From Clostridia bacterium (GTDB lineage Bacteria > Bacillota > Thermoanaerobacteria > Thermoanaerobacterales > Thermoanaerobacteraceae): a stretch of DNA of 64,000 bases. The notes beneath the pieces were generated by a model. It was not told where the DNA came from. It saw only the letters and a program-made list of their open reading frames with translations, and searched no databases. Where the stretch lies: contig DULG01000088.1 in assembly GCA_012840485.1 (NCBI GenBank), positions 12,047-76,046 on the forward strand, given 5' to 3'. Of the stretch, positions 20,280-30,237 are shown in pieces. Within the stretch, counting starts at the first letter, position 1. Each line of letters opens with the position of its first letter. Both the position numbers and the translations under genes were made by a program.

Positions 20280-21473
20280 TCACAGCTCTTTTTCTAATCC
20301 TATTGCCCTTTTAAAAGGTATACTGGAAATTAAAGCTGTAATTAAAGATAAGAAAAGTGCAGCATAAAGACCCTTTTTGTCACTTAAGACTCCAAAGGAG
20401 TAAATACATAGAATTGTAGAAACACTAATAAACAAACTATATATTGAAATAATCGTTGCACGCTCTGAAGAAGGTATTAACTTATTAAAATAAGACATAA
20501 AAATCGGAGTGTGTGCAGAATATACTGCTGTATAAATAATATAAGGTATAAACGAATACTTGGGAATCGCATACATCATAAATATAAACAATGCAGATGT
20601 AATACTGACAATCATTAGTGTGCGAGCTGCCCCTTTAAATCTTTCAGCTATCCTGTCAGCATAACGGGGCACAAAAATACTAAGTACCATCGTTAATGCT
20701 AAAATAATACCAAACAATTCTACAGGTATGCCTGCCCGTTCGAAATAGGGCTGCCACAACATTGACATGATTCCCGATGAAAAGAAAAAGAAAAAAGCTC
20801 CAATTGTAATAAATAATAAAATCTCATGTTTAAATAGATACACAGTTCCTTTAGCAATTTTATTAAAATACTCTCTGTAACTGTATTCGTCCGTTTTTTT
20901 CTCTAATTTAGCTTCTTTGCCCGCTAAAAATACGTAAATAAAAACCAAAAAAATCCCTATACCTTCTATTAGCCAGATTTCTCTAAAGATATTATAACGT
21001 ACTAAAACGCTGCCTCCTAAAAATCCTATCGTACTACCTAAATAGTTAAAACTTGTAAGACGTCCCCAGTATTTTGTCAGGTCTATTTCTTTTTGACCCA
21101 AAAGAAACGAATCAGCAAACCAAGATTCAAAGGCTCCAGAATTAAGAGTTGCTCCAACTCCTGATAAGAAATATAAAAATAATAAAACTGTAAAAGAGGT
21201 GTTGAAATATATCCCAATAGAAGTTAAACTGCCAATCAATAAAGATAAAAGAACAGAAAATTTACGGCTATATGTATCAGCAAAAGCACCCGTAGGTATT
21301 TCGAATAATATGACCGCTATGTGGTTTATTATTATGAGGAGTGAAATTTGTGAAAAATCTAAATTAATTTTATTAAAATATATTACCCAAAATGGTGCCA
21401 TTAAAGATGTAAAAAAACTTGAAAACAATGTTACCGTCAAGAAAAATCGTACATTCCTTTTTAAATTTTGCAT
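20280..21473 (-). CDS. MFS transporter (probable exporter)
   Basis: 12-TM pattern; FEIPTGAFADTYSRK motif A and SGAFESW. Confidence 0.88.
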   Translation of the reverse strand: MQNLKRNVRFFLTVTLFSSFFTSLMAPFWVIYFNKINLDFSQISLLIIINHIAVILFEIPTGAFADTYSRKFSVLLSLLIGSLTSIGIYFNTSFTVLLFLYFLSGVGATLNSGAFESWFADSFLLGQKEIDLTKYWGRLTSFNYLGSTIGFLGGSVLVRYNIFREIWLIEGIGIFLVFIYVFLAGKEAKLEKKTDEYSYREYFNKIAKGTVYLFKHEILLFITIGAFFFFFSSGIMSMLWQPYFERAGIPVELFGIILALTMVLSIFVPRYADRIAERFKGAARTLMIVSITSALFIFMMYAIPKYSFIPYIIYTAVYSAHTPIFMSYFNKLIPSSERATIISIYSLFISVSTILCIYSFGVLSDKKGLYAALFLSLITALISSIPFKRAIGLEKEL

Positions 21474-22459
21474 TTATTTAAATCCTCCTCTGAAGGAATA
21501 AATTTACCAAATGTTAGGAAGTTTTCAGCAATACAATAATTCGTAGAACAGAAGCGAGCAAATTCACATTTGGTACACAGAAATTTTTTGCTTAATCTTT
21601 TGGAATAACTTCTTATCCTTTTTGCTTTCTCACTATTCCATATTTCAAAAATATCTTGTGATTTTATGTTGCCTAGAATTATTTTATCATCTACTCTTTG
21701 CTCGAAAATCCGGCATGGAAGTACATTCCCATCAGGTTGAATTTCAAAACCGACGTTTATATTGCAACCTGGAACCTTTTGGTCTTCAATAGACTTGGGT
21801 ACATCTCCCATTATTTGGTACAATGTTTGACAATTGTTGCCCCCAATCCCAAGGTTTCAAGCGTGCAAATTTAACTGAAGTAACTCCCAAATCGCTTAAC
21901 AATTTTACAATTTCTTCTATTTGCATCATATTATGTTTTCCGTAAGTTACTTCAACTTCCACTTGAAATGCATTTGAAAATTTTTTCAAATTTGAAATTG
22001 AAGAAAAAACCTTTTTAAATGTCCCCTCTCCCCTGATAAAATCATGAGTCTCGCTATTACTTCCTTCTATTGATAAACTATAACTTACTACGTGATAAGA
22101 ATTCATTATCTCAATCTTTTCTTTCGATAAATTTATACCATTAGTAACTAGTTCAATAGGGATTTTGTGTTGATTAAATATTTCCATAATTTTAAAAAAA
22201 TCCTTTCTAACTGTTGGTTCGCCACCATTAAAATCTCGTATTTCTCCATTTGTTCAGCCAATTTTTTTATATCATCTAATTCTAATTCTTTTATTTGGTA
22301 ATGTCTTAAACTCCCAACCAAACAGTGTTTACATTTTAAATTACATTTATAAGTTAATAGTAGTGATAATACTAACGGTGATTCGAATTCATAAATGTGG
22401 TCAATACTATAGTTTGTATTATTTCCTTCTCTGTTCTCTCCAATAATTATTTTCTGCAA
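21461..22459 (-). pseudogene. Radical SAM/SPASM enzyme (PqqE/MftC-like architecture) split by two frameshifts
   Basis: CNLKCKHC in the first piece; GGEPTVRKD in the shifted frame; VTNG; SPASM C..C..CTKCEFARFCSTNYC in the last piece. Confidence 0.85.
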
Positions 22460-22553: not shown

Positions 22554-23324
22554 TCAATACTCATTCCATATCCCTTCAACTTTACTTTTATTGTAAATAT
22601 ATCTAAAAAAGGATATACCAATGATAAAATATAAAAAGCTATTTATGCATAACAAAAACATCTGACTGAAAAATACAGGCTGCTTGTCAATTAAACTCTG
22701 TGAAATTAATATGCCCTGTGTTAAAGGCAAACTTTTGCTAATAATTTGAAATAAGATTGGCATGGAATTAATATCAATTATCGTCCCCGTAAAAAATAAT
22801 AAAATGTAAGATAAAATAGTCTCAAAAGAAGCCGTTTTAGTAAATCTTAAAGTCAGTCCTCCTAATAATAAACTAAAGCCCAATAGTCCTATTAACGTAA
22901 TTATTAAAATGGGTATTATTTTTATATTAAAAACTATATTTATGGGTAAGGTTAATTTGATAACTATAAATAATACCATAACTTTGATAAAAGTAATTGC
23001 AAGCCATGTTAGTGTTTTTATTAAACATATTACTTCTAAAGATACAGGCTTTAGAAGCAACTGTTCTAATGTACCTACTTGTTTTTCAAAGGATATCGAT
23101 ACAGATACCTCACTTATTATGTTAGCCGCGAGAAACCAATATAAAAAGCCAATGTAATAACTGTCTTTTACAGCAGCATAATTTCTAAATTCCAAAAAGA
23201 ATCCTGCAAAAAATATATAAGTTACAATCATATTTACTATATGATCGGGGTAATAAGTTTTTACTTCGATCATATACTTAGATAATTCCGCTTTTATAAT
23301 ATTAAACATCTTCAAAGCTGTCAC
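22554..23324 (-). CDS. ABC-2 type permease
   Basis: FEKQVGTLEQLLLKP motif, 6 TM, LPLTQGI. Confidence 0.85.
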   Translation of the reverse strand: MTALKMFNIIKAELSKYMIEVKTYYPDHIVNMIVTYIFFAGFFLEFRNYAAVKDSYYIGFLYWFLAANIISEVSVSISFEKQVGTLEQLLLKPVSLEVICLIKTLTWLAITFIKVMVLFIVIKLTLPINIVFNIKIIPILIITLIGLLGFSLLLGGLTLRFTKTASFETILSYILLFFTGTIIDINSMPILFQIISKSLPLTQGILISQSLIDKQPVFFSQMFLLCINSFLYFIIGISFFRYIYNKSKVEGIWNEY

Positions 23325-24261
23325 TTCCTAACTTCAAAAATTTGTACATTATATCTTCAAGGCTATCTTGGCTTTTAGAAATATGAGTAACATAAATATT
23401 TCTTTTTACCATATCACCTAAAAAGCTATTTATAAGCCTATTACTATCAATATAAACTTCTATTTCAGTAATATCATTTTCCCTGCGCACCACATTAACT
23501 GTATCAAAATACTTTTTTATTTCTGCATCATCTAAATTTCTTTCCACTCTTATTAAATATTTATTGCCTGAATATTTATTTATCAACTTATCTACTGTAT
23601 CCAAAAATTGTATTTTCCCTTCACCTAATATCATCACTCTATCAGCTACTTTTTCAACGACATCCATTTGATGTGACGTAATAATAACTGTCACACCCTC
23701 CTCCTTTGACAAATGTTTTATTTTTTCAATCATGTCCATTTTAGACACCACATCAAGCCCTAAAGTTGGCTCATCTAAAAACAATATCTTTGGTTCATGG
23801 AGTAATGAGATTATAATTGATAATTTTTGCTGCATCCCTCTTGAAAAATTCCCTACTTTTTTATCTTTATCCTCATATAGCCCAAAAAATTTTAATAATT
23901 CCTCTCCTCTTTCTCTAATTTCTTTTTCTTTTAACCCCATCAATCTTCCGAAATAAAGTATATTTTCATAAGCCGACAAATACCAATAAATATTTCTATT
24001 ACCTTCTAACACAACTCCGATTTCAGTGTAGTAATCCTTTCCTATAGTTGTAATTTCCATATTTTTATATAAAATTTTCCCTTTTGAAGGAGTTAATAAA
24101 TTAACCATCAATTTTATCAATGTAGTTTTACCTGCGCCATTTTCTCCTAATATGCTGAAAATTTCTCCTTTATCAACATGAAAACTTACTGAATCTAAAA
24201 CCAATTGCTTTTTTCTATTTGTCTTATATGTTTTGGATAGCTCTTTTATTTCTAATATCAT
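23302..24261 (-). CDS. ABC transporter ATP-binding protein
   Basis: GENGAGKTT, FSRGMQQK, FLDEPT and C-terminal SLEDIMY. Confidence 0.92.
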   Translation of the reverse strand: MILEIKELSKTYKTNRKKQLVLDSVSFHVDKGEIFSILGENGAGKTTLIKLMVNLLTPSKGKILYKNMEITTIGKDYYTEIGVVLEGNRNIYWYLSAYENILYFGRLMGLKEKEIRERGEELLKFFGLYEDKDKKVGNFSRGMQQKLSIIISLLHEPKILFLDEPTLGLDVVSKMDMIEKIKHLSKEEGVTVIITSHQMDVVEKVADRVMILGEGKIQFLDTVDKLINKYSGNKYLIRVERNLDDAEIKKYFDTVNVVRRENDITEIEVYIDSNRLINSFLGDMVKRNIYVTHISKSQDSLEDIMYKFLKLGSDSFEDV

Positions 24262-24482
24262 ACTAATCTTTTTTCCTCCATTCTGTTTGGAGCTTTAACA
24301 TAAGTATAGCAAAAATAACAGTAATATTACTTTATAATAAATAATATTATGACAAAACCAAAAAGTAATATCACAGAATTTAATTACTTTAACAAGCAGA
24401 TATTGATTTTAAGCTACTACAGGTAGAATTTGGTATGTTGTTATATTTGAGTCTAACTTCCTTGAAAACTCTCAACTACCAT

Positions 24483-25757
24483 TTATTTATTTCCCTTGGC
24501 ACTATTTTTATAGTTCTCTACAATTAATGGAATATCATTTTCATCCAATTCTTGTTTAGGACATATATTACCGTAAACATTCTTTTTATATACACACCAT
24601 CCTCCGCAAATAATTTTATAATCACAATCAGTACATTCAGAATTCATATTTTCTTTTTCTATAAATTGACTAACTCTGGAATAATAATAATGGCTTCCAT
24701 ATTCAGATATATGTGAAATTAAGTATTGTGTATTACCAATTCCAGATATACACTTATAGAGATATCCATCCGGACTAATTATAAATACGTTGTCCCTAAA
24801 AAAACTACATGTAAAATAACTATTTCTGTAGAAAGGCACATAATTATTTCCATACTTTAAACCTATTTTATGTGCATTTAACCAAGCTTTATTTATGTCG
24901 TTTTTATAAGCATATTTAAAAGAATTCTTTCTAGACTCAAATACTATACTAAAAAACACGGGATAATTTATTCTTTTTTTTCTTAATTCTATAAACAATT
25001 CTTCAATATGATTTATATTCAACAAATTAATGTTGCAGTTTATTACAATATTGATTGATTCATTAAACTCCTTAGAAATAGCTTCTAGATTATTTATTAT
25101 CTTATTGTAACTTCCACTGTTGTCCATTCCAATTCTCAACTGATCATGGATTTTTTGTGGTCCATCTAATGTTACTTGTAGCAAATCTATTTTCATATTT
25201 ATGAGTTCATTAACTGTTTTTTTGTTAAGTAAAGTCCCATTCGTAATAATCGATTTGATAATTTTGAGAGATTTTCCTTCATTCGATATTCCATTAATAA
25301 TATTTTTAATTTTTCTCTTATGTAACAAAGGTTCTCCTCCAATAAAACATAGTTCAATTTGCTCTGGACTTGTCTTTTTAACAATTCCTTTAATAAATTT
25401 AATTACATCTTTTTCTGTTTCCTCAGTCATAACCTTTTTACTTTTTATTTCCCTTTGATAACAATAAACACATCTTAAATTACAGTTGTAATTTAAATGA
25501 ATTATGAAAGAAACTGAACGACTCGAATACTTAATTTTATTCATAACCATTTTAACAAGTTTTTCTTCATCTATTTCGCTAAATTGTAAATATAATTCTT
25601 TCCTTAAATATTGTAATTCTTCTTGGTTCAATTTTTTAATAAATATTTCTACATCTTCTTTAGAAGTAGGTAAAGATATTAAAGAATTAGTAATTGAATT
25701 ATACAAAAGAGTTTTTTTATCATCTACAGGTATTTTAATTACATATTTGCTTAACAA
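24483..25757 (-). CDS. Radical SAM/SPASM peptide maturase with an N-terminal extension (probable RRE)
   Basis: CNLRCVYC, GGEPLL, TNG, QVTLDG; SPASM Cys set C..C..CTDCDYKIICGGWC..C; about 90-aa N-terminal extension. Confidence 0.9.
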   Translation of the reverse strand: MLSKYVIKIPVDDKKTLLYNSITNSLISLPTSKEDVEIFIKKLNQEELQYLRKELYLQFSEIDEEKLVKMVMNKIKYSSRSVSFIIHLNYNCNLRCVYCYQREIKSKKVMTEETEKDVIKFIKGIVKKTSPEQIELCFIGGEPLLHKRKIKNIINGISNEGKSLKIIKSIITNGTLLNKKTVNELINMKIDLLQVTLDGPQKIHDQLRIGMDNSGSYNKIINNLEAISKEFNESINIVINCNINLLNINHIEELFIELRKKRINYPVFFSIVFESRKNSFKYAYKNDINKAWLNAHKIGLKYGNNYVPFYRNSYFTCSFFRDNVFIISPDGYLYKCISGIGNTQYLISHISEYGSHYYYSRVSQFIEKENMNSECTDCDYKIICGGWCVYKKNVYGNICPKQELDENDIPLIVENYKNSAKGNK

Positions 25758-25785
25758 GATTTTTTACCTCCTATTCTTGATTATT

Positions 25786-27072
25786 TTATGTACAGAGTTG
25801 AATTATACCTTCAACTATTCCATTTTGGATTTCTTCTTTTTTGCAGAGAACTTTATTAATATCATATTTGTTCTCTATTTTTTCTCTTTTACACCCCCCC
25901 ATACAAAAAGGTAAAAATGTACACGTCTTACATCTTTCTTCATATTCTATTTCATCTTCATCATAACTATACAACTTTAATAGAATCATGTCTGTATCAT
26001 CCTTAATGTTTCCTATAATAAATTTATCACTACCGATTCCGTATATACACTTACTTATATTCCCGTTGGGTTCTATTATAATCGAATTCTTTCTATTAGC
26101 TAAACAAGGTCCATATCCTATAAATTCATCATTCTCTTTGTTATAACCATATATTTTCAAACTCTTTAATAAAGTTTTATATATTATAGCTAATTCATCA
26201 GGTTTTAGTTTATGCACTCTCGAAATATTATTTTCAGTACTTATCAAAGAATTAAACTTTATATAAACTTTGTTTCTGTATTTTTTAGGAAATATATCTA
26301 AAAATTTAATTATACTTCTGTAATTATATTTATCAAAATTCATATTGATTACAATCTCAAACCCATTATCTATTAACATCAAAAGATTATTATATATCTT
26401 TTTAAACGTTCCAGAGCCATCATGTAAAAATCTTCTTTCGTCATGGCATCTTTCAATTCCATCAATAGTTATCTGAAAACTGTTAATATTTAATTTTTTG
26501 AAGTTTTCAATCATCTTTTCATCAATTAAATATCCATTAGTCACTATGTTAACCAGACTTCTAATTCCAAAATTATTTTCTATGTAACATAAAAACATAC
26601 AAACTTTTTCTATTGTCTTCATTTCTAGCAATGGTTCCCCGCCAAAAAAGTTAAAATCTATAACACGACACCTACTTTTAATAATAACATTCTCTAAAAA
26701 TTGCAGCATTTTGTCTAGTTCCATGTTTTTATAATTTTTTTCTTTTTTAAAACCTTCATAACAATATGGACATTTAAAATTACAATTGTATGTCGTTAAA
26801 AATGTTACAATAAAATATTCATTTTGCCATTTTTGCTTATTTAACCAATACTTATACAATAAAAATTCATCTATATCATCATCCACTATAAACCCTAATT
26901 CACATAAATCTTTATATTTTTTTTTGGCAGTATGATAATTTATTTTTTTTATATTTTCTTTAAGCTGGTAGTATTCTCCTCTTTCTATAGAGATAATTGA
27001 TCTCGTTAATGTATTAAAAATTATAACGTTATTATCTAAAGTCTTCTCATAATTAAAAACCGAAAATTTCAT
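25786..27072 (-). CDS. Radical SAM/SPASM peptide maturase with an N-terminal extension (probable RRE)
   Basis: CNFKCPYC, GGEPLL, TNG, QITIDG; SPASM C..C..CKTCTFLPFCMGGC..C; AGGAGG RBS. Confidence 0.9.
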   Translation of the reverse strand: MKFSVFNYEKTLDNNVIIFNTLTRSIISIERGEYYQLKENIKKINYHTAKKKYKDLCELGFIVDDDIDEFLLYKYWLNKQKWQNEYFIVTFLTTYNCNFKCPYCYEGFKKEKNYKNMELDKMLQFLENVIIKSRCRVIDFNFFGGEPLLEMKTIEKVCMFLCYIENNFGIRSLVNIVTNGYLIDEKMIENFKKLNINSFQITIDGIERCHDERRFLHDGSGTFKKIYNNLLMLIDNGFEIVINMNFDKYNYRSIIKFLDIFPKKYRNKVYIKFNSLISTENNISRVHKLKPDELAIIYKTLLKSLKIYGYNKENDEFIGYGPCLANRKNSIIIEPNGNISKCIYGIGSDKFIIGNIKDDTDMILLKLYSYDEDEIEYEERCKTCTFLPFCMGGCKREKIENKYDINKVLCKKEEIQNGIVEGIIQLCT

Positions 27073-27261
27073 ATTTAATTTTCTCCTCCTATGTTATCTT
27101 CTATTTTCTCTCATTATTTAGCTTTTTTAATTTTTCTATCATAATAAGGTAGATATCATTAAAGAATATACCAGGTATTTCTATTATCATTTTATTCACT
27201 GGATCTCTGCCTTTAATTCTTTTTTTATCTGCTATTATGCTCTTTAAATTATAATGTAAAC

Positions 27262-27798
27262 TTATTTTAACTTTTTCAAAATTTGTATAAAATCTAGTAC
27301 GTTTTCAACTTTAATTATTCTATCATCATCTATTACTAAATCTGTCAATTTAGGCACTAAAAAATAATCATACTGTCTTTCTTTAAAAATACTAAACTTT
27401 TCTTTCATCCCACCAACTTCTAAAACATTTCCGTATAAATCTATTTCACCAGTTGCTAAAATATTTTTACCTTCTACATATTTCCGCATGTTCTCATCCA
27501 AACAACTATACATAACAGACATAAAAATTCCTAACCCTGCAGAAGTTCCATCTTTATAAATACTCCCATTAGTAAAATGTACATGAAAATCGAATTCATT
27601 AATTATTTTTTTATCTATTTTTAACAAAATATAGTTGCTTTTTATTACTGAAAGTGCAACTTGTACCATTTCCGCAATTGCATTACCTACAACTCCTGTA
27701 ACCAAGCAGTTACCGTTGCCATTCTCAAACCTCATACATTGCACCGAAAAACAATCAACAATACCTTCATTATTTATGGCAGGTACATCTATTCTCAT
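27262..27798 (-). CDS. Stand-alone Lon protease proteolytic (S16) domain, no AAA+ module
   Basis: HVHFTNGSIYKDGTSAG (catalytic Ser) and TGEIDLYGNVLEVGGMKEK (catalytic Lys) align to E. coli Lon PKDGPSAG / TGEITLRG..IGGLKEK; GAGGAG RBS. Confidence 0.88.
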   Translation of the reverse strand: MRIDVPAINNEGIVDCFSVQCMRFENGNGNCLVTGVVGNAIAEMVQVALSVIKSNYILLKIDKKIINEFDFHVHFTNGSIYKDGTSAGLGIFMSVMYSCLDENMRKYVEGKNILATGEIDLYGNVLEVGGMKEKFSIFKERQYDYFLVPKLTDLVIDDDRIIKVENVLDFIQILKKLK

Positions 27799-28043
27799 TT
27801 TTCTCCTCTCCCATTAGTATAAACAATAAATTGGAAATAAGTAATTAATAAAAAATATGATTACTTTCTTATTTTTCTTATTTTCCCTTTACATATATTT
27901 CGTTTTATTAATGTGATATAGTATAGTACAGTTAAAATTTGGAGATATTTCTTTAATCAATATATTTTTACATATTTTTTGTGCCGCTATTCTTATTTCG
28001 TTTTGAAAATCCCTGTTGAAATCAATATTTCTTTATATTTACA

Positions 28044-28089
28044 AGCATAGCATAATAAGTATTGTCTACAGTACTTATTATGCTATGCT
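28044..28089 (-). terminator. 18-bp perfect stem-loop downstream of the precursor peptide gene (terminator or mRNA-stabilising hairpin)
   Basis: AGCATAGCATAATAAGTA (28044-28061) / TACTTATTATGCTATGCT (28072-28089). Confidence 0.75.
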
Positions 28090-28101: not shown

Positions 28102-28233
28102 TTAATCAATAGTTAAACGCTGTGTTTTTCTGCAACATGAATAAATCAAATCAGCATTTTCGATCTTGTGTCCAGTTCTAATAACTTTAACTTTTTTTAA
28201 TTCATTAGATTGCTTCTCCTGTTTTTGAGTCAT
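28102..28233 (-). CDS. Putative RiPP precursor peptide, 43 aa: MTQKQEKQSNELKKVKVIRTGHKIENADLIYSCCRKTQRLTID
   Basis: Manual translation (below the ORF-track cutoff); strong AGGAGGTG RBS 6 nt before ATG; first gene of the rSAM operon; followed by a strong hairpin. Confidence 0.8.
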   Translation of the reverse strand: MTQKQEKQSNELKKVKVIRTGHKIENADLIYSCCRKTQRLTID

Positions 28234-29439: not shown

Positions 29440-30237
29440 TTAATCCACATCTACCAGTCCCAACTTAATTGCCTTTATTACTGCCTCTTTAGTGTTTTTT
29501 ACTCCAAGTTTTTCTACTATCTTTCTTTTGTGATATTTCACAGTCACAACCCCTATCCCAAGAGCTTCTGCTATGTCTGATTCTCTGTATCCTTTTGCCT
29601 CTAATTCCAGTATTTTTATCTGGCTGTCATTTAATTTTATCTTTATCTCATTTATCTCTTTTTCTTTTACTATCTTTTCATATTCACTCGCTATTTTTTC
29701 AGCCAGCAGTTTTATTACCATTGATACTTCACTTGTGATTTTTTTGTCAATAGTTGATATATCCACATAGCCTACTATTTCCCCGTTTTCTACTATTATA
29801 GGTGAAGCAATGCAGTGCCATTTTTTAAATATGTAACAGTAGTGTTCCTGAGGTCTTACATACACTACCCTTTTTAATCTCATTGCCATTGAAATCGCAT
29901 TTGTCCCACAGCTTTCTTCTCTAAAGGATATTCCCCGTTCAAAGCCTGAATCTTTTATACATTTTTTCCCTTTTGTACTGCATTTTACATCCATCAAATA
30001 TCCTTCAATATCAGTAAGCAAAAATAGATACTCGCCTTTTACCCACTCCTCTTCTACACTCATATGAAAAGCTTCTATGAGTTCTTTATTTTTATGTACT
30101 TTCTTTTGCAAATCTTCTGGATTTAATATCACCAATGGCAGAGTTATTGAAGTGTCAATACCAATTTCTATACATTGTTTATATGAAAAACTTAGTTCTT
30201 CTTGCGGACATGAAAAATTCATTTTTATACCCTCCAA
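29440..30237 (-). CDS. Transcriptional regulator: AcoR-like GAF domain plus C-terminal LuxR HTH
   Basis: GISFREESCGTNAISMA, HYCYIFKKWHCIASPI (GAF); LNDSQIKILELEAKGYRESDIAEALGIGVVTVKYH..KIVEKLGVKN (LuxR HTH). Confidence 0.9.
   Translation of the reverse strand: MEGIKMNFSCPQEELSFSYKQCIEIGIDTSITLPLVILNPEDLQKKVHKNKELIEAFHMSVEEEWVKGEYLFLLTDIEGYLMDVKCSTKGKKCIKDSGFERGISFREESCGTNAISMAMRLKRVVYVRPQEHYCYIFKKWHCIASPIIVENGEIVGYVDISTIDKKITSEVSMVIKLLAEKIASEYEKIVKEKEINEIKIKLNDSQIKILELEAKGYRESDIAEALGIGVVTVKYHKRKIVEKLGVKNTKEAVIKAIKLGLVDVD

What the first reader, a model, noticed from the sequence alone, without database searches (positions are those of the whole stretch)
24483..27072. Two tandem intact rSAM/SPASM paralogs for a core with only two adjacent Cys
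Seen: 428-aa and 424-aa proteins, each with a ~90-aa N-terminal extension, CxxxCxxC, GGEP and a full SPASM Cys set, but clearly divergent from each other. Inference: division of labour (two different crosslinks, or thioether plus C-C chemistry), or an obligate heterodimer; more than one precursor, possibly encoded elsewhere, is also possible.
Basis: partly seen in the sequence, partly recalled or inferred. Interest (0 to 1): 0.7.

Follow-up and report, generated by a model that had tools for sequence, protein, structure and literature searches.

The report
Two-maturase radical SAM peptide cluster
Two intact but divergent radical-SAM peptide-modifying enzymes sit next to a 43-residue precursor with a conserved YSCCRKTQR core; relatives show that one enzyme (B) is always kept and the other (A) is optional, so this is a rare, uncharacterised peptide natural-product family.

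Summary
Window 25786-27072(-) encodes rSAM-A (428 aa) and 24483-25757(-) encodes rSAM-B (424 aa). Each has CxxxCxxC, GGEP, all seven SPASM Cys and a predicted RRE-like N-domain. They share only 26% identity and fall in separate clades.

They lie in one operon-like cluster: a 43-aa precursor (its only Cys are C33 and C34), a stand-alone Lon_C protease, A, B and an ABC-2 exporter. The genome holds no second precursor. The cluster is a low-GC island in a Thermoanaerobacter-like genome. It was not found in 20 genomes of the same family or in 400 sampled from the phylum.

Ten related clusters from metagenomes change the reading:
- B is intact in 11 of 11 clusters.
- A is intact in 6, a full-length protein without CxxxCxxC/GGEP in 3, and absent in 2.
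- Across 37 precursors only Y31, C34 and Q38 are invariant. C33 is replaced by S, G or A in one branch.

Best reading: B is the core maturase acting at C34, probably making a thioether. A is an accessory partner that here is still equipped for catalysis and probably adds a second modification. A thuricin-CD-like TrnC/TrnD complex is the main rival.

No curated family claims either enzyme. I rate it a new variant of a known kind, of moderate interest.

The parts
28102..28233 (-). Precursor peptide, 43 aa: MTQKQEKQSNELKKVKVIRTGHKIENADLIYSCCRKTQRLTID. Leader motif KVKVIRTG; core YSCCRKTQR.
   Evidence: ORF with AGGAGG 8 nt upstream. Homologous precursors sit at the same position in 9 related clusters. 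Alignment A3 has G21, Y31, C34 and Q38 invariant. A profile search finds 28 representatives.
28045..28088 (.). 20-bp-stem hairpin just downstream of the precursor stop. Likely an attenuator or a transcript stabiliser.
   Evidence: Terminator-like scan, 20 pairs; sequence read. Function is inferred.
27262..27798 (-). Stand-alone Lon_C (S16) protease domain, 178 aa. Candidate leader peptidase.
   Evidence: Pfam Lon_C 83 bits. DGTSAG (83-88) and GGMKEK (129-134) hold the Ser-Lys dyad. A homologue is present in 7 related clusters.
25786..27072 (-). rSAM-A, 428 aa: RRE-like N-domain, radical SAM core and full 7-Cys SPASM. The accessory paralog: intact here, degenerate or absent in some relatives.
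24483..25757 (-). rSAM-B, 424 aa: RRE-like N-domain, radical SAM core and full 7-Cys SPASM. The core maturase: rSAM motif and GGE[PT] intact in all 11 clusters examined.
23302..24261 (-). ABC transporter ATPase (DrrA-like), 319 aa.
   Evidence: TIGR01188 231 bits, Pfam ABC_tran. Conserved directly after B in all relatives.
22554..23324 (-). ABC-2 type permease, 256 aa. Export and/or self-protection.
   Evidence: Pfam ABC2_membrane; conserved in relatives (same calls).
29440..30237 (-). LuxR/GerE-type regulator, 265 aa, upstream of the precursor. Context only: it is not found in the related clusters.
   Evidence: Pfam GerE. Its link to the cluster is inferred from position.

Best explanation
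This is a RiPP (ribosomal peptide natural product) cluster. The 43-aa precursor is bound through its K-V-K-V-I-R-x-G leader by the RRE-like N-domains of two CteB-like radical SAM/SPASM maturases.

rSAM-B is the core enzyme of the family. It acts on the invariant Cys34. Most likely it makes an intramolecular thioether to a nearby invariant residue. Cys34 to Gln38 has the same i to i+4 spacing as the CX3D sites of PapB.

rSAM-A is an accessory paralog. In this genome it keeps every catalytic motif, and it most likely installs a second modification linked to Cys33 and its neighbours (Ser32, Arg35). It may also help to hold the leader.

The stand-alone Lon_C protease then removes the leader, and the ABC-2 transporter exports the small basic product.

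Shown: gene content, motifs, predicted folds, conservation and co-occurrence.
Inferred: thioether chemistry, which residue each enzyme touches, the leader-peptidase role and export.
For: Both enzymes have complete rSAM and SPASM motifs. Both give high-confidence models (pLDDT 87.6 and 88.7) whose best structural match is the thioether synthase CteB over its full length.

The order precursor, Lon_C, A, B, ABC, ABC-2 recurs in L007, L009, L173, L174, L179 and GCA_016648615.

B keeps its rSAM motif and GGE[PT] in 11 of 11 clusters, and all seven SPASM Cys in 10 (L180 has Ala at the C375 position). A is intact in 6, lacks CxxxCxxC and GGEP in 3 (L172, L176, L180) and is absent in 2 (L177, L178).

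In the six lineages with intact A, all ten catalytic Cys and GGEP are invariant at 35-52% identity. That argues for selection on catalysis.

Precursor cores with known context:
- Intact A: YSCCRK[TS]Q[RH] in 6 of 6.
- A not intact: YSCCAKKQR, YTACPHTQN, YSGCSHTQN, YACCQKTQR.

Across 9 aligned precursors plus 28 representatives only Y31, C34 and Q38 never vary in the core.

There is a single precursor in the genome.
Against: No chemistry was observed. The closest folds also include enzymes that make no thioether: anSME, SuiB and the cyclopropyl synthase TigE.

Both Cys persist in a B-only cluster (L177) and in a dead-A cluster (L172), so 'A handles Cys33' is not a clean rule.

Arg35 also occurs in the representatives P0284 and P0285 (YACCRKTQR), whose gene context is unknown.

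The covariation rests on 10 clusters that are related to each other.

Dead A proteins are kept as full-length ORFs. That points to a non-catalytic role for A, which favours the rival below.
Confidence: 0.45

Rival explanations
1. TrnC/TrnD-like synergy. A and B form a complex on one precursor. B does all the radical chemistry on the core. A mainly binds the leader and positions the peptide, and its own rSAM activity is secondary or dispensable.
For: [quoted passage not shown] Only TrnC's rSAM cluster is essential, and TrnD mainly contacts the leader (PMC12093266).

Three relatives here keep a full-length A-like ORF without CxxxCxxC or GGEP. Its best-conserved parts are the N-terminal RRE-like region and the SPASM Cys.

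The A-like proteins of L176 and L180 are only 26% identical, while their B partners are 52% identical, yet both A-like frames stay open.

The A and B genes overlap by 4-17 nt in L172, L173, L176 and L180, which suggests translational coupling.
Against: B-only clusters exist (L177, L178), so B does not universally need A.

In the window's lineage all of A's catalytic residues are strictly conserved.

In the window A and B are separated by 28 nt, and B has its own ribosome-binding site.

TrnD has a truncated, twitch-type SPASM domain, whereas A has the full seven Cys.
Confidence: 0.3
2. Redundancy. A and B each install the same crosslink(s) independently, as reported for ThzC and ThzD of thuricin Z.
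For: There is precedent: two distant rSAMs (BlastP E 1e-7) each form the sactionines of the same precursor in vitro (review PMC8172795).

Both A and B carry an RRE-like domain and a full SPASM domain.
Against: The pair is retained, with matching sister groupings, in the A and B parts of the tree across lineages at 35-50% identity. Pure redundancy rarely survives that long.

The active-site-facing positions defined on CteB differ between the two enzymes (my mapping): A has Y105, F143, V177, T202, I343, Y344; B has Y100, I139, I171, T196, I337, S338.

Loss is one-sided. A decays and B never does.
Confidence: 0.1
3. The chemistry is not a thioether. For example, a Tyr31-centred C-C or C-S crosslink, oxidation of Cys34, or epimerisation, with Cys, Tyr and Gln conserved for other reasons.
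For: Tyr31 is as invariant as Cys34.

Related SPASM enzymes make C-C, C-O and cyclopropyl products: weak NCBIfam hits to YhhB and DynA, and Foldseek hits to SuiB and TigE.
Against: The nearest structural and sequence relative is the thioether synthase CteB.

Among characterised families, PapB and SCIFF maturases score well.

An invariant Cys in a short core is typical of sacti- and ranthipeptides (established knowledge).
Confidence: 0.15

Closest known systems
Thuricin CD maturases TrnC/TrnD (Bacillus thuringiensis)
   Same: Two divergent rSAM maturases are encoded side by side with an ABC transporter. The reported asymmetry (only TrnC's rSAM cluster is essential; TrnD is a partner that contacts the leader) mirrors the natural pattern here, where B is always intact and A is dispensable or degenerate (PMC12093266).
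   Different: Thuricin CD has two different precursors with three Cys each and hairpin sactionines. Here there is one precursor and a 9-residue core. [quoted passage not shown] No TrnC or TrnD model appeared among the listed NCBIfam hits (one search shows the best 25). Complex formation was not tested here.
Thuricin Z (huazacin) maturases ThzC/ThzD
   Same: Two distant rSAM enzymes serve one kind of precursor sequence (PMC8172795).
   Different: ThzC and ThzD are reported as independently sufficient and equivalent. Here loss is one-sided, and the pocket-facing residues differ between A and B.
CteB (thermocellin/SCIFF ranthipeptide maturase, PDB 5WGG/5WHY)
   Same: It is the best sequence match in the PDB (E 9e-33 for A, 2e-30 for B) and the best fold match (TM about 0.7 over the full length). 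The shared architecture is an N-terminal RRE, an rSAM barrel and a 7-Cys SPASM domain.
   Different: Identity is only 16-18%. Both proteins score 74-82 bits against the SCIFF maturase model TIGR03974, whose cutoff is 425. SCIFF precursors carry six Cys in about 45 residues, not this core.
PapB (freyrasin ranthipeptide maturase; CX3D sites)
   Same: The invariant Cys34 and Gln38 have the same i to i+4 spacing as PapB's Cys-X3-Asp. B scores 121 bits and A 102 bits on NF047865.
   Different: Both are below the cutoff of 340. The acceptor would be Gln, not Asp or Glu, and there is one site rather than six repeats. The spacing argument is inference from my own knowledge of PapB.
NCBIfam CefB (NF038107), TIGR04463, Clo7bot and geopeptide maturase families
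   Same: These are the best-scoring curated families for both A and B (129-196 bits). All are RRE-rSAM-SPASM maturases of Cys-containing peptides.
   Different: All scores are far below the cutoffs (400-600), and these families are themselves chemically uncharacterised.
Pseudo-SAM/SPASM proteins (e.g. NCBIfam TIGR04347)
   Same: The A-like proteins in L172, L176 and L180 have lost the SAM-cluster motif but keep SPASM Cys. That is the defining trait of a 'pseudo-SAM/SPASM' protein.
   Different: They did not hit TIGR04347, so this is an independent origin within the A clade. The window's own A is not a pseudo-enzyme.

Membership tests
Radical SAM / SPASM superfamily | CxxxCxxC motif for the SAM-binding [4Fe-4S] cluster | tested here: met
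   A has C97, C101, C104; B has C92, C96, C99. Pfam PF04055 scores 66 and 59 bits against a cutoff of 29.5.
Radical SAM / SPASM superfamily | Seven-Cys SPASM motif Cx9-15Gx4C...Cx2Cx5Cx3C...C for two auxiliary clusters | tested here: met
   All seven Cys are present and aligned in both proteins. A passes TIGR04085 (54 bits against 27). For B the motif is read from the sequence and the model; Pfam PF13186 was not reported at E<=0.01.
RRE-fused RiPP maturases (CteB/SuiB type) | N-terminal PqqD-like winged-helix RRE (three strands, then three helices) | tested here: met
   AlphaFold2 elements: A has E7-12, E15-20, E25-30, H31-43, H51-58, H69-81; B has E6-12, E15-20, E25-29, H33-41, H45-53, H64-76. 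pLDDT is 80-96 across most of these regions. Foldseek aligns 444-470 columns to CteB. This rests on predicted structures only; Pfam PqqD is not detected by sequence.
Sactipeptide / ranthipeptide maturases (ScfB/CteB, PapB, AlbA, RumMC, StsB equivalogs) | Score above the curated NCBIfam cutoff | tested here: not met
   TIGR03974: 74 and 82 bits against 425. NF047865: 102 and 121 against 340. NF035951: 72 (B) against 720.
Sactipeptide / ranthipeptide maturases | Forms a Cys-S to C-alpha, C-beta or C-gamma thioether on the precursor | not testable with these tools
   Needs mass spectrometry or NMR of the modified peptide.
TrnC/TrnD-type synergistic rSAM pair | Two divergent rSAM maturases encoded in tandem in one RiPP cluster | tested here: met
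   A and B are adjacent and 26% identical. The pair is conserved in six other clusters.
TrnC/TrnD-type synergistic rSAM pair | The two proteins form a physical complex and neither works alone | not testable with these tools
   Only indirect hints are available: overlapping A and B genes in four relatives. B-only clusters argue against a universal requirement.
TrnC/TrnD-type synergistic rSAM pair | Only one partner's rSAM cluster is essential | tested here: inconclusive
   Natural variants lack A's cluster motif while B's is always kept. Whether those clusters are functional is unknown.
TrnC/TrnD-type synergistic rSAM pair | Two-component product from two different precursors | tested here: not met
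   There is one precursor in the cluster and in the genome.
CefB (Cys-every-fifth) maturase family NF038107 | Score above the curated cutoff (600 bits), and a Cys-every-fifth precursor | tested here: not met
   196 and 192 bits. The precursor has two adjacent Cys, not a periodic pattern.

The most novel reading that the evidence does not exclude
The Y-x-x-C-x-x-x-Q peptides are a new RiPP class. Their maturation uses an asymmetric rSAM pair, and the family holds a natural series running from a two-enzyme system (this window), through an enzyme plus a pseudo-rSAM partner that keeps its RRE and auxiliary clusters, to a single-enzyme system. If so, it would show how a radical SAM maturase becomes a non-catalytic partner. 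The product may also carry a crosslink type not yet described, such as Cys-Gln or a compact bicycle on adjacent Cys.
Probability: 0.3. Interest if true: 0.75.

Novelty: new variant of a known kind. Interest (0 to 1): 0.55.

Why it matters
RiPP clusters with two rSAM maturases are known, but why two are needed has only recently been worked out for one case, thuricin CD.

This family offers a small system that can be tested directly: one short precursor and two enzymes. Evolution has already removed A's radical SAM motifs, or the whole gene, in some members, while B is never lost.

The core (invariant Tyr, Cys and Gln within 8 residues) and the Lon-type protease match no curated family. The product is therefore likely to be a new small, basic, crosslinked peptide, in this genome made by a thermophilic anaerobe.

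This would not overturn anything. It is a good candidate for enzymology and structure elucidation.

Tried and rejected
- **A second precursor elsewhere in the genome: rejected.** Regex and tblastn and a profile HMM over 69,404 six-frame ORFs find only the one.
- **Word-index search with the precursor:** found only itself. A first attempt failed on a parameter limit.
They say nothing about how widely the family is spread.
- **Viral-contig scan with the B alignment:** only distant hits (<=35% identity over short segments).
- **Pfam on the isolated N-terminal extensions:** no PqqD hit. The fold evidence comes from predicted structures only.
- **Literature:** no paper with 'YSCCRK', and none linking a Lon-type protease to an rSAM RiPP.
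- **Repeated independent loss of A:** the B tree's backbone is poorly resolved. The best tree needs 3 changes, but well-supported branches force only 1, so I do not claim this.
- **A and B as recent duplicates: rejected.** They form separate, well-supported clades among other rSAM maturases, and nothing groups them as sisters.
Full report
**1. What is in the window**

All genes of the cluster lie on the minus strand. In order of transcription:
- a LuxR/GerE-type regulator, 29440-30237;
- a 43-aa ORF, 28102-28233;
- a 178-aa stand-alone Lon_C (S16) protease domain, 27262-27798;
- rSAM-A, 25786-27072, 428 aa;
- rSAM-B, 24483-25757, 424 aa;
- an ABC ATPase, 23302-24261;
- an ABC-2 permease, 22554-23324;
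- a third, shorter rSAM/SPASM gene broken over three frames, 21461-22459;
- an MFS transporter, 20280-21473.

The small ORF reads MTQKQEKQSNELKKVKVIRTGHKIENADLIYSCCRKTQRLTID. It has an AGGAGG ribosome-binding site and is followed by a hairpin with a 20-bp stem. Pfam and NCBIfam support each of these assignments.

- A has C97/C101/C104, GGEP 144-147 and SPASM Cys 323, 342, 381, 384, 390, 394, 410.
- B has C92/C96/C99, GGEP 140-143 and SPASM Cys 317, 336, 375, 378, 384, 388, 399.
- A and B are 26% identical over 418 residues.
- The precursor has exactly two Cys, and they are adjacent.

**2. Fold and family of the two enzymes**

No curated NCBIfam family claims either protein. The best hit for both is CefB (NF038107), at 196 and 192 bits against a cutoff of 600. 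Next come TIGR04463, Clo7bot and the geopeptide maturase. PapB, the SCIFF maturase, QhpD, anSME and others score lower.

Profile searches against PDB sequences put CteB (5WGG) first for both, at E 9e-33 and 2e-30.

AlphaFold2 models built on family alignments are confident: A has pLDDT 87.6 and pTM 0.85, B has 88.7 and 0.88. Each begins with three strands followed by three helices, which is the RRE (PqqD-like) topology. Foldseek aligns both models to CteB over 444-470 columns with TM about 0.7. The next matches are anSME, SuiB, TigE, ChlB and SkfB. Pfam does not detect PqqD in the isolated extensions, so the RRE call rests on predicted structure.

Precord et al. defined six pocket-facing positions on CteB: F112, F152, T186, S210, H363 and Q364 (PMC10288494). 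Reading them off the HMMER alignments:
- A has Y105, F143, V177, T202, I343, Y344.
- B has Y100, I139, I171, T196, I337, S338.

The two enzymes therefore differ from each other at two of the six positions and from CteB at four or five. This mapping is my own count and allows for a +3 offset in the PDB chain numbering.

**3. Host and distribution**

The neighbouring GlgA falls in a 90%-identity cluster with Thermoanaerobacter kivui, T. uzonensis, Thermoanaerobacter sp. YS13 and Caldanaerobacter sp.. The host is therefore a Thermoanaerobacter-like thermophile.

The maturase region has 25% GC, against 28-39% in the rest of the window. B-like genes (E<=1e-40) are missing from the 20 other species genomes of the same family. 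At E<=1e-55 they were not found in 400 genomes sampled across the phylum.

The relatives come from metagenomes and often sit beside mobility genes:
- L009 carries Rep3 and Mob_Pre and looks like a plasmid.
- L007, L011 and L174 carry transposases.
- L173 carries an integrase.

The cluster is thus a rare, mobile island.

**4. Related clusters**

The closest A homologues (15 sequences, 35-51% identity) and B homologues (about 20 sequences, 32-53%) lie on the same contigs. I read gene context for ten further clusters.

The order precursor, Lon_C, A, B, ABC, ABC-2 recurs in L007/L008, L009, L173, L174/L175, L179 and GCA_016648615. L011 is a decayed copy.

B keeps CxxxCxxC and GGE[PT] in 11 of 11 clusters. 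It keeps all seven SPASM Cys in 10; L180 has Ala at one position.

A behaves differently:
- It is intact in six clusters, including the window.
- In L172, L176 and L180 the gene upstream of B encodes a full-length protein (362-426 aa) that lacks both CxxxCxxC and GGEP.
- In L177 and L178 there is no A at all.

The dead A proteins are still recognisably rSAM-derived. L176 scores 79 bits on TIGR04463. L180 keeps only the N-terminal 91 residues and the SPASM domain at detectable level. L176 and L180 keep all seven SPASM Cys; L172 keeps four.

The A-like proteins of L176 and L180 are 26% identical, while their B partners are 52% identical. The A-like protein therefore evolves much faster, yet its frame stays open in both. 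That suggests a retained, non-radical role.

A and B (or A-like and B) genes overlap by 4-17 nt in L172, L173, L176 and L180.

In a joint tree A and B form separate, well-supported clades among other rSAM maturases, and nothing groups them as sisters. L176's A-like protein falls inside the A clade, while L172's is too divergent to place. The sister groupings in the A and B clades match: the window with L174/P0122, then L009.

A tree of B alone, rooted on outgroups, has a poorly resolved backbone. The best tree needs three changes of A status, but well-supported branches force only one. I therefore do not claim repeated independent loss.

**5. The precursor family**

Nine precursors align without gaps from the leader motif to the core. 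The shared pattern is a [KI]-x-[VI]-x-[VI]-x-x-G leader, nine variable residues, then Y-[SAT]-[CGA]-C-x-[KH]-[TSK]-Q-[RHN]. The invariant positions are G21, Y31, C34 and Q38.

A profile search of 1.84 billion representative proteins found 28 members at E<=0.001. Their cores are:
- YSCCRK[ST]QR, YSCCRKSQH, YSCCRKSQK, YSCCRHTQR and YSCCRKKQR;
- Y[AS]CC[KQNR]KTQR;
- a branch with a single Cys and a conserved tail, such as YSSCSHSQNNRPTT and YSSCRKSQNTRPTS, with YTCCAKTQNNRPTT as a two-Cys member.

Y31, C34 and Q38 hold throughout. The first Cys (C33) does not.

Among the clusters with known context:
- intact A goes with YSCCRK[TS]Q[RH] in 6 of 6;
- dead A goes with YSCCAKKQR (L172), YTACPHTQN (L176, a fragment at the contig end) and YSGCSHTQN (L180);
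- the B-only cluster L177 has YACCQKTQR.

So Arg35 (6/6 against 0/4) and Cys33 (6/6 against 2/4) track intact A. Three cautions apply. The sample is small and its members are related to each other. Both Cys survive without a working A in two cases. Arg35 also occurs in two representatives of unknown context (P0284, P0285).

In the window's genome there is only one such precursor: tblastn and regex, and the profile HMM (E 1.4e-21, next best 0.14).

**6. Interpretation**

B is the indispensable enzyme of the family, and Cys34 is the indispensable residue. The simplest reading is that B modifies Cys34. CteB is the nearest relative, and an invariant Cys in a short core is typical of sacti- and ranthipeptides. 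A thioether is therefore the most likely product. Gln38 lies at i+4, the spacing PapB uses for its CX3D sites; that comparison is from my own knowledge of PapB and was not tested here. Tyr31 is the other invariant candidate partner.

A is optional across the family. In the window's lineage, however, every catalytic residue of A is conserved. I therefore favour a second modification made by A around Cys33, Ser32 and Arg35.

The main rival follows the thuricin CD precedent. [quoted passage not shown] The survival of dead A proteins that keep an RRE-like domain and SPASM Cys fits that picture well.

Redundancy of the ThzC/ThzD kind (PMC8172795) is less likely, because loss is one-sided and the pocket residues differ.

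An obligate heterodimer cannot be a rule for the whole family, since B-only clusters exist.

The Lon_C protein keeps the Ser-Lys dyad (DGTSAG, GGMKEK). A homologue is present in seven of the related clusters. It is the obvious candidate for leader peptidase, but that is inferred.

**7. Limits**

- No complex prediction was possible.
- The chemistry is unobserved.
- Whether the dead-A and B-only clusters are functional is unknown.

**8. Verdict**

The cluster belongs to a rare, uncharacterised RiPP family of a known general kind. It has an unusual and testable feature: an asymmetric pair of rSAM maturases for one very short core.

The scan's earlier notes on this window (precursor, Lon_C protease, broken third rSAM, whole cluster) agree with what I found. 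None had been followed up.

Noticed in passing
window 21461-22459 (-): A third rSAM/SPASM gene without an N-terminal extension is split over three reading frames (pieces of 103, 133 and 120 aa). The pieces hit MftC, ScmF, WgkB-like models and the SPASM domain model, so it is of a different type from A and B. None of the related clusters has a gene here; L176 instead has a B12-binding rSAM after its ABC genes.
   Followed up: partly
window 24001-28000: GC is 25%, against 28-39% elsewhere in the window. The cluster was also not found in 20 genomes of the same family, so it looks like a horizontally acquired island.
   Followed up: partly
window 24262-24482: There is a 221-nt gap between rSAM-B and the ABC ATPase. 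In relatives the ABC gene follows B within a few bases. A promoter-like site with an extended -10 lies at 24374-24346 (-). The transporter genes may have their own promoter here.
   Followed up: no
L172:7916-9004, L176:304-1584, L180:1626-2876: Full-length A-like proteins that have lost CxxxCxxC and GGEP but keep an RRE-like N-terminus and, in L176 and L180, all seven SPASM Cys. They are natural 'pseudo-rSAM' partners encoded directly upstream of, and overlapping, an intact B.
   Followed up: partly
P0271, P0275, P0283; L176:74-133; L180:593-733: A sub-branch of precursors has a conserved tail, Q-N-[NT]-[KR]-P-T, after the core. In all but P0271 the first Cys is replaced by S, G or A. In the two cases with known context the A paralog is dead.
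   Followed up: partly
L009 (8312 bp, whole contig): The complete cluster sits on a small contig that also carries Rep3 replication and Mob_Pre mobilisation genes. It is probably a plasmid, which would explain the patchy distribution.
   Followed up: no
L173:1152-5067: Next to this related cluster lie SIR2/STALD, ThsB-TIR and TIR_2 genes (Thoeris-like defence) and an integrase. Here the peptide cluster sits in a defence or mobile island.
   Followed up: no
G000 contigs C58:8849-9838, C49:53138-53848, C80:1580-2062 and C80:4939-5184: The genome has other rSAM/SPASM genes. The two matches on C80 contain in-frame stops (1 TGA; 2 TAG). None has a KVKVIR-type precursor nearby by profile search.
   Followed up: partly
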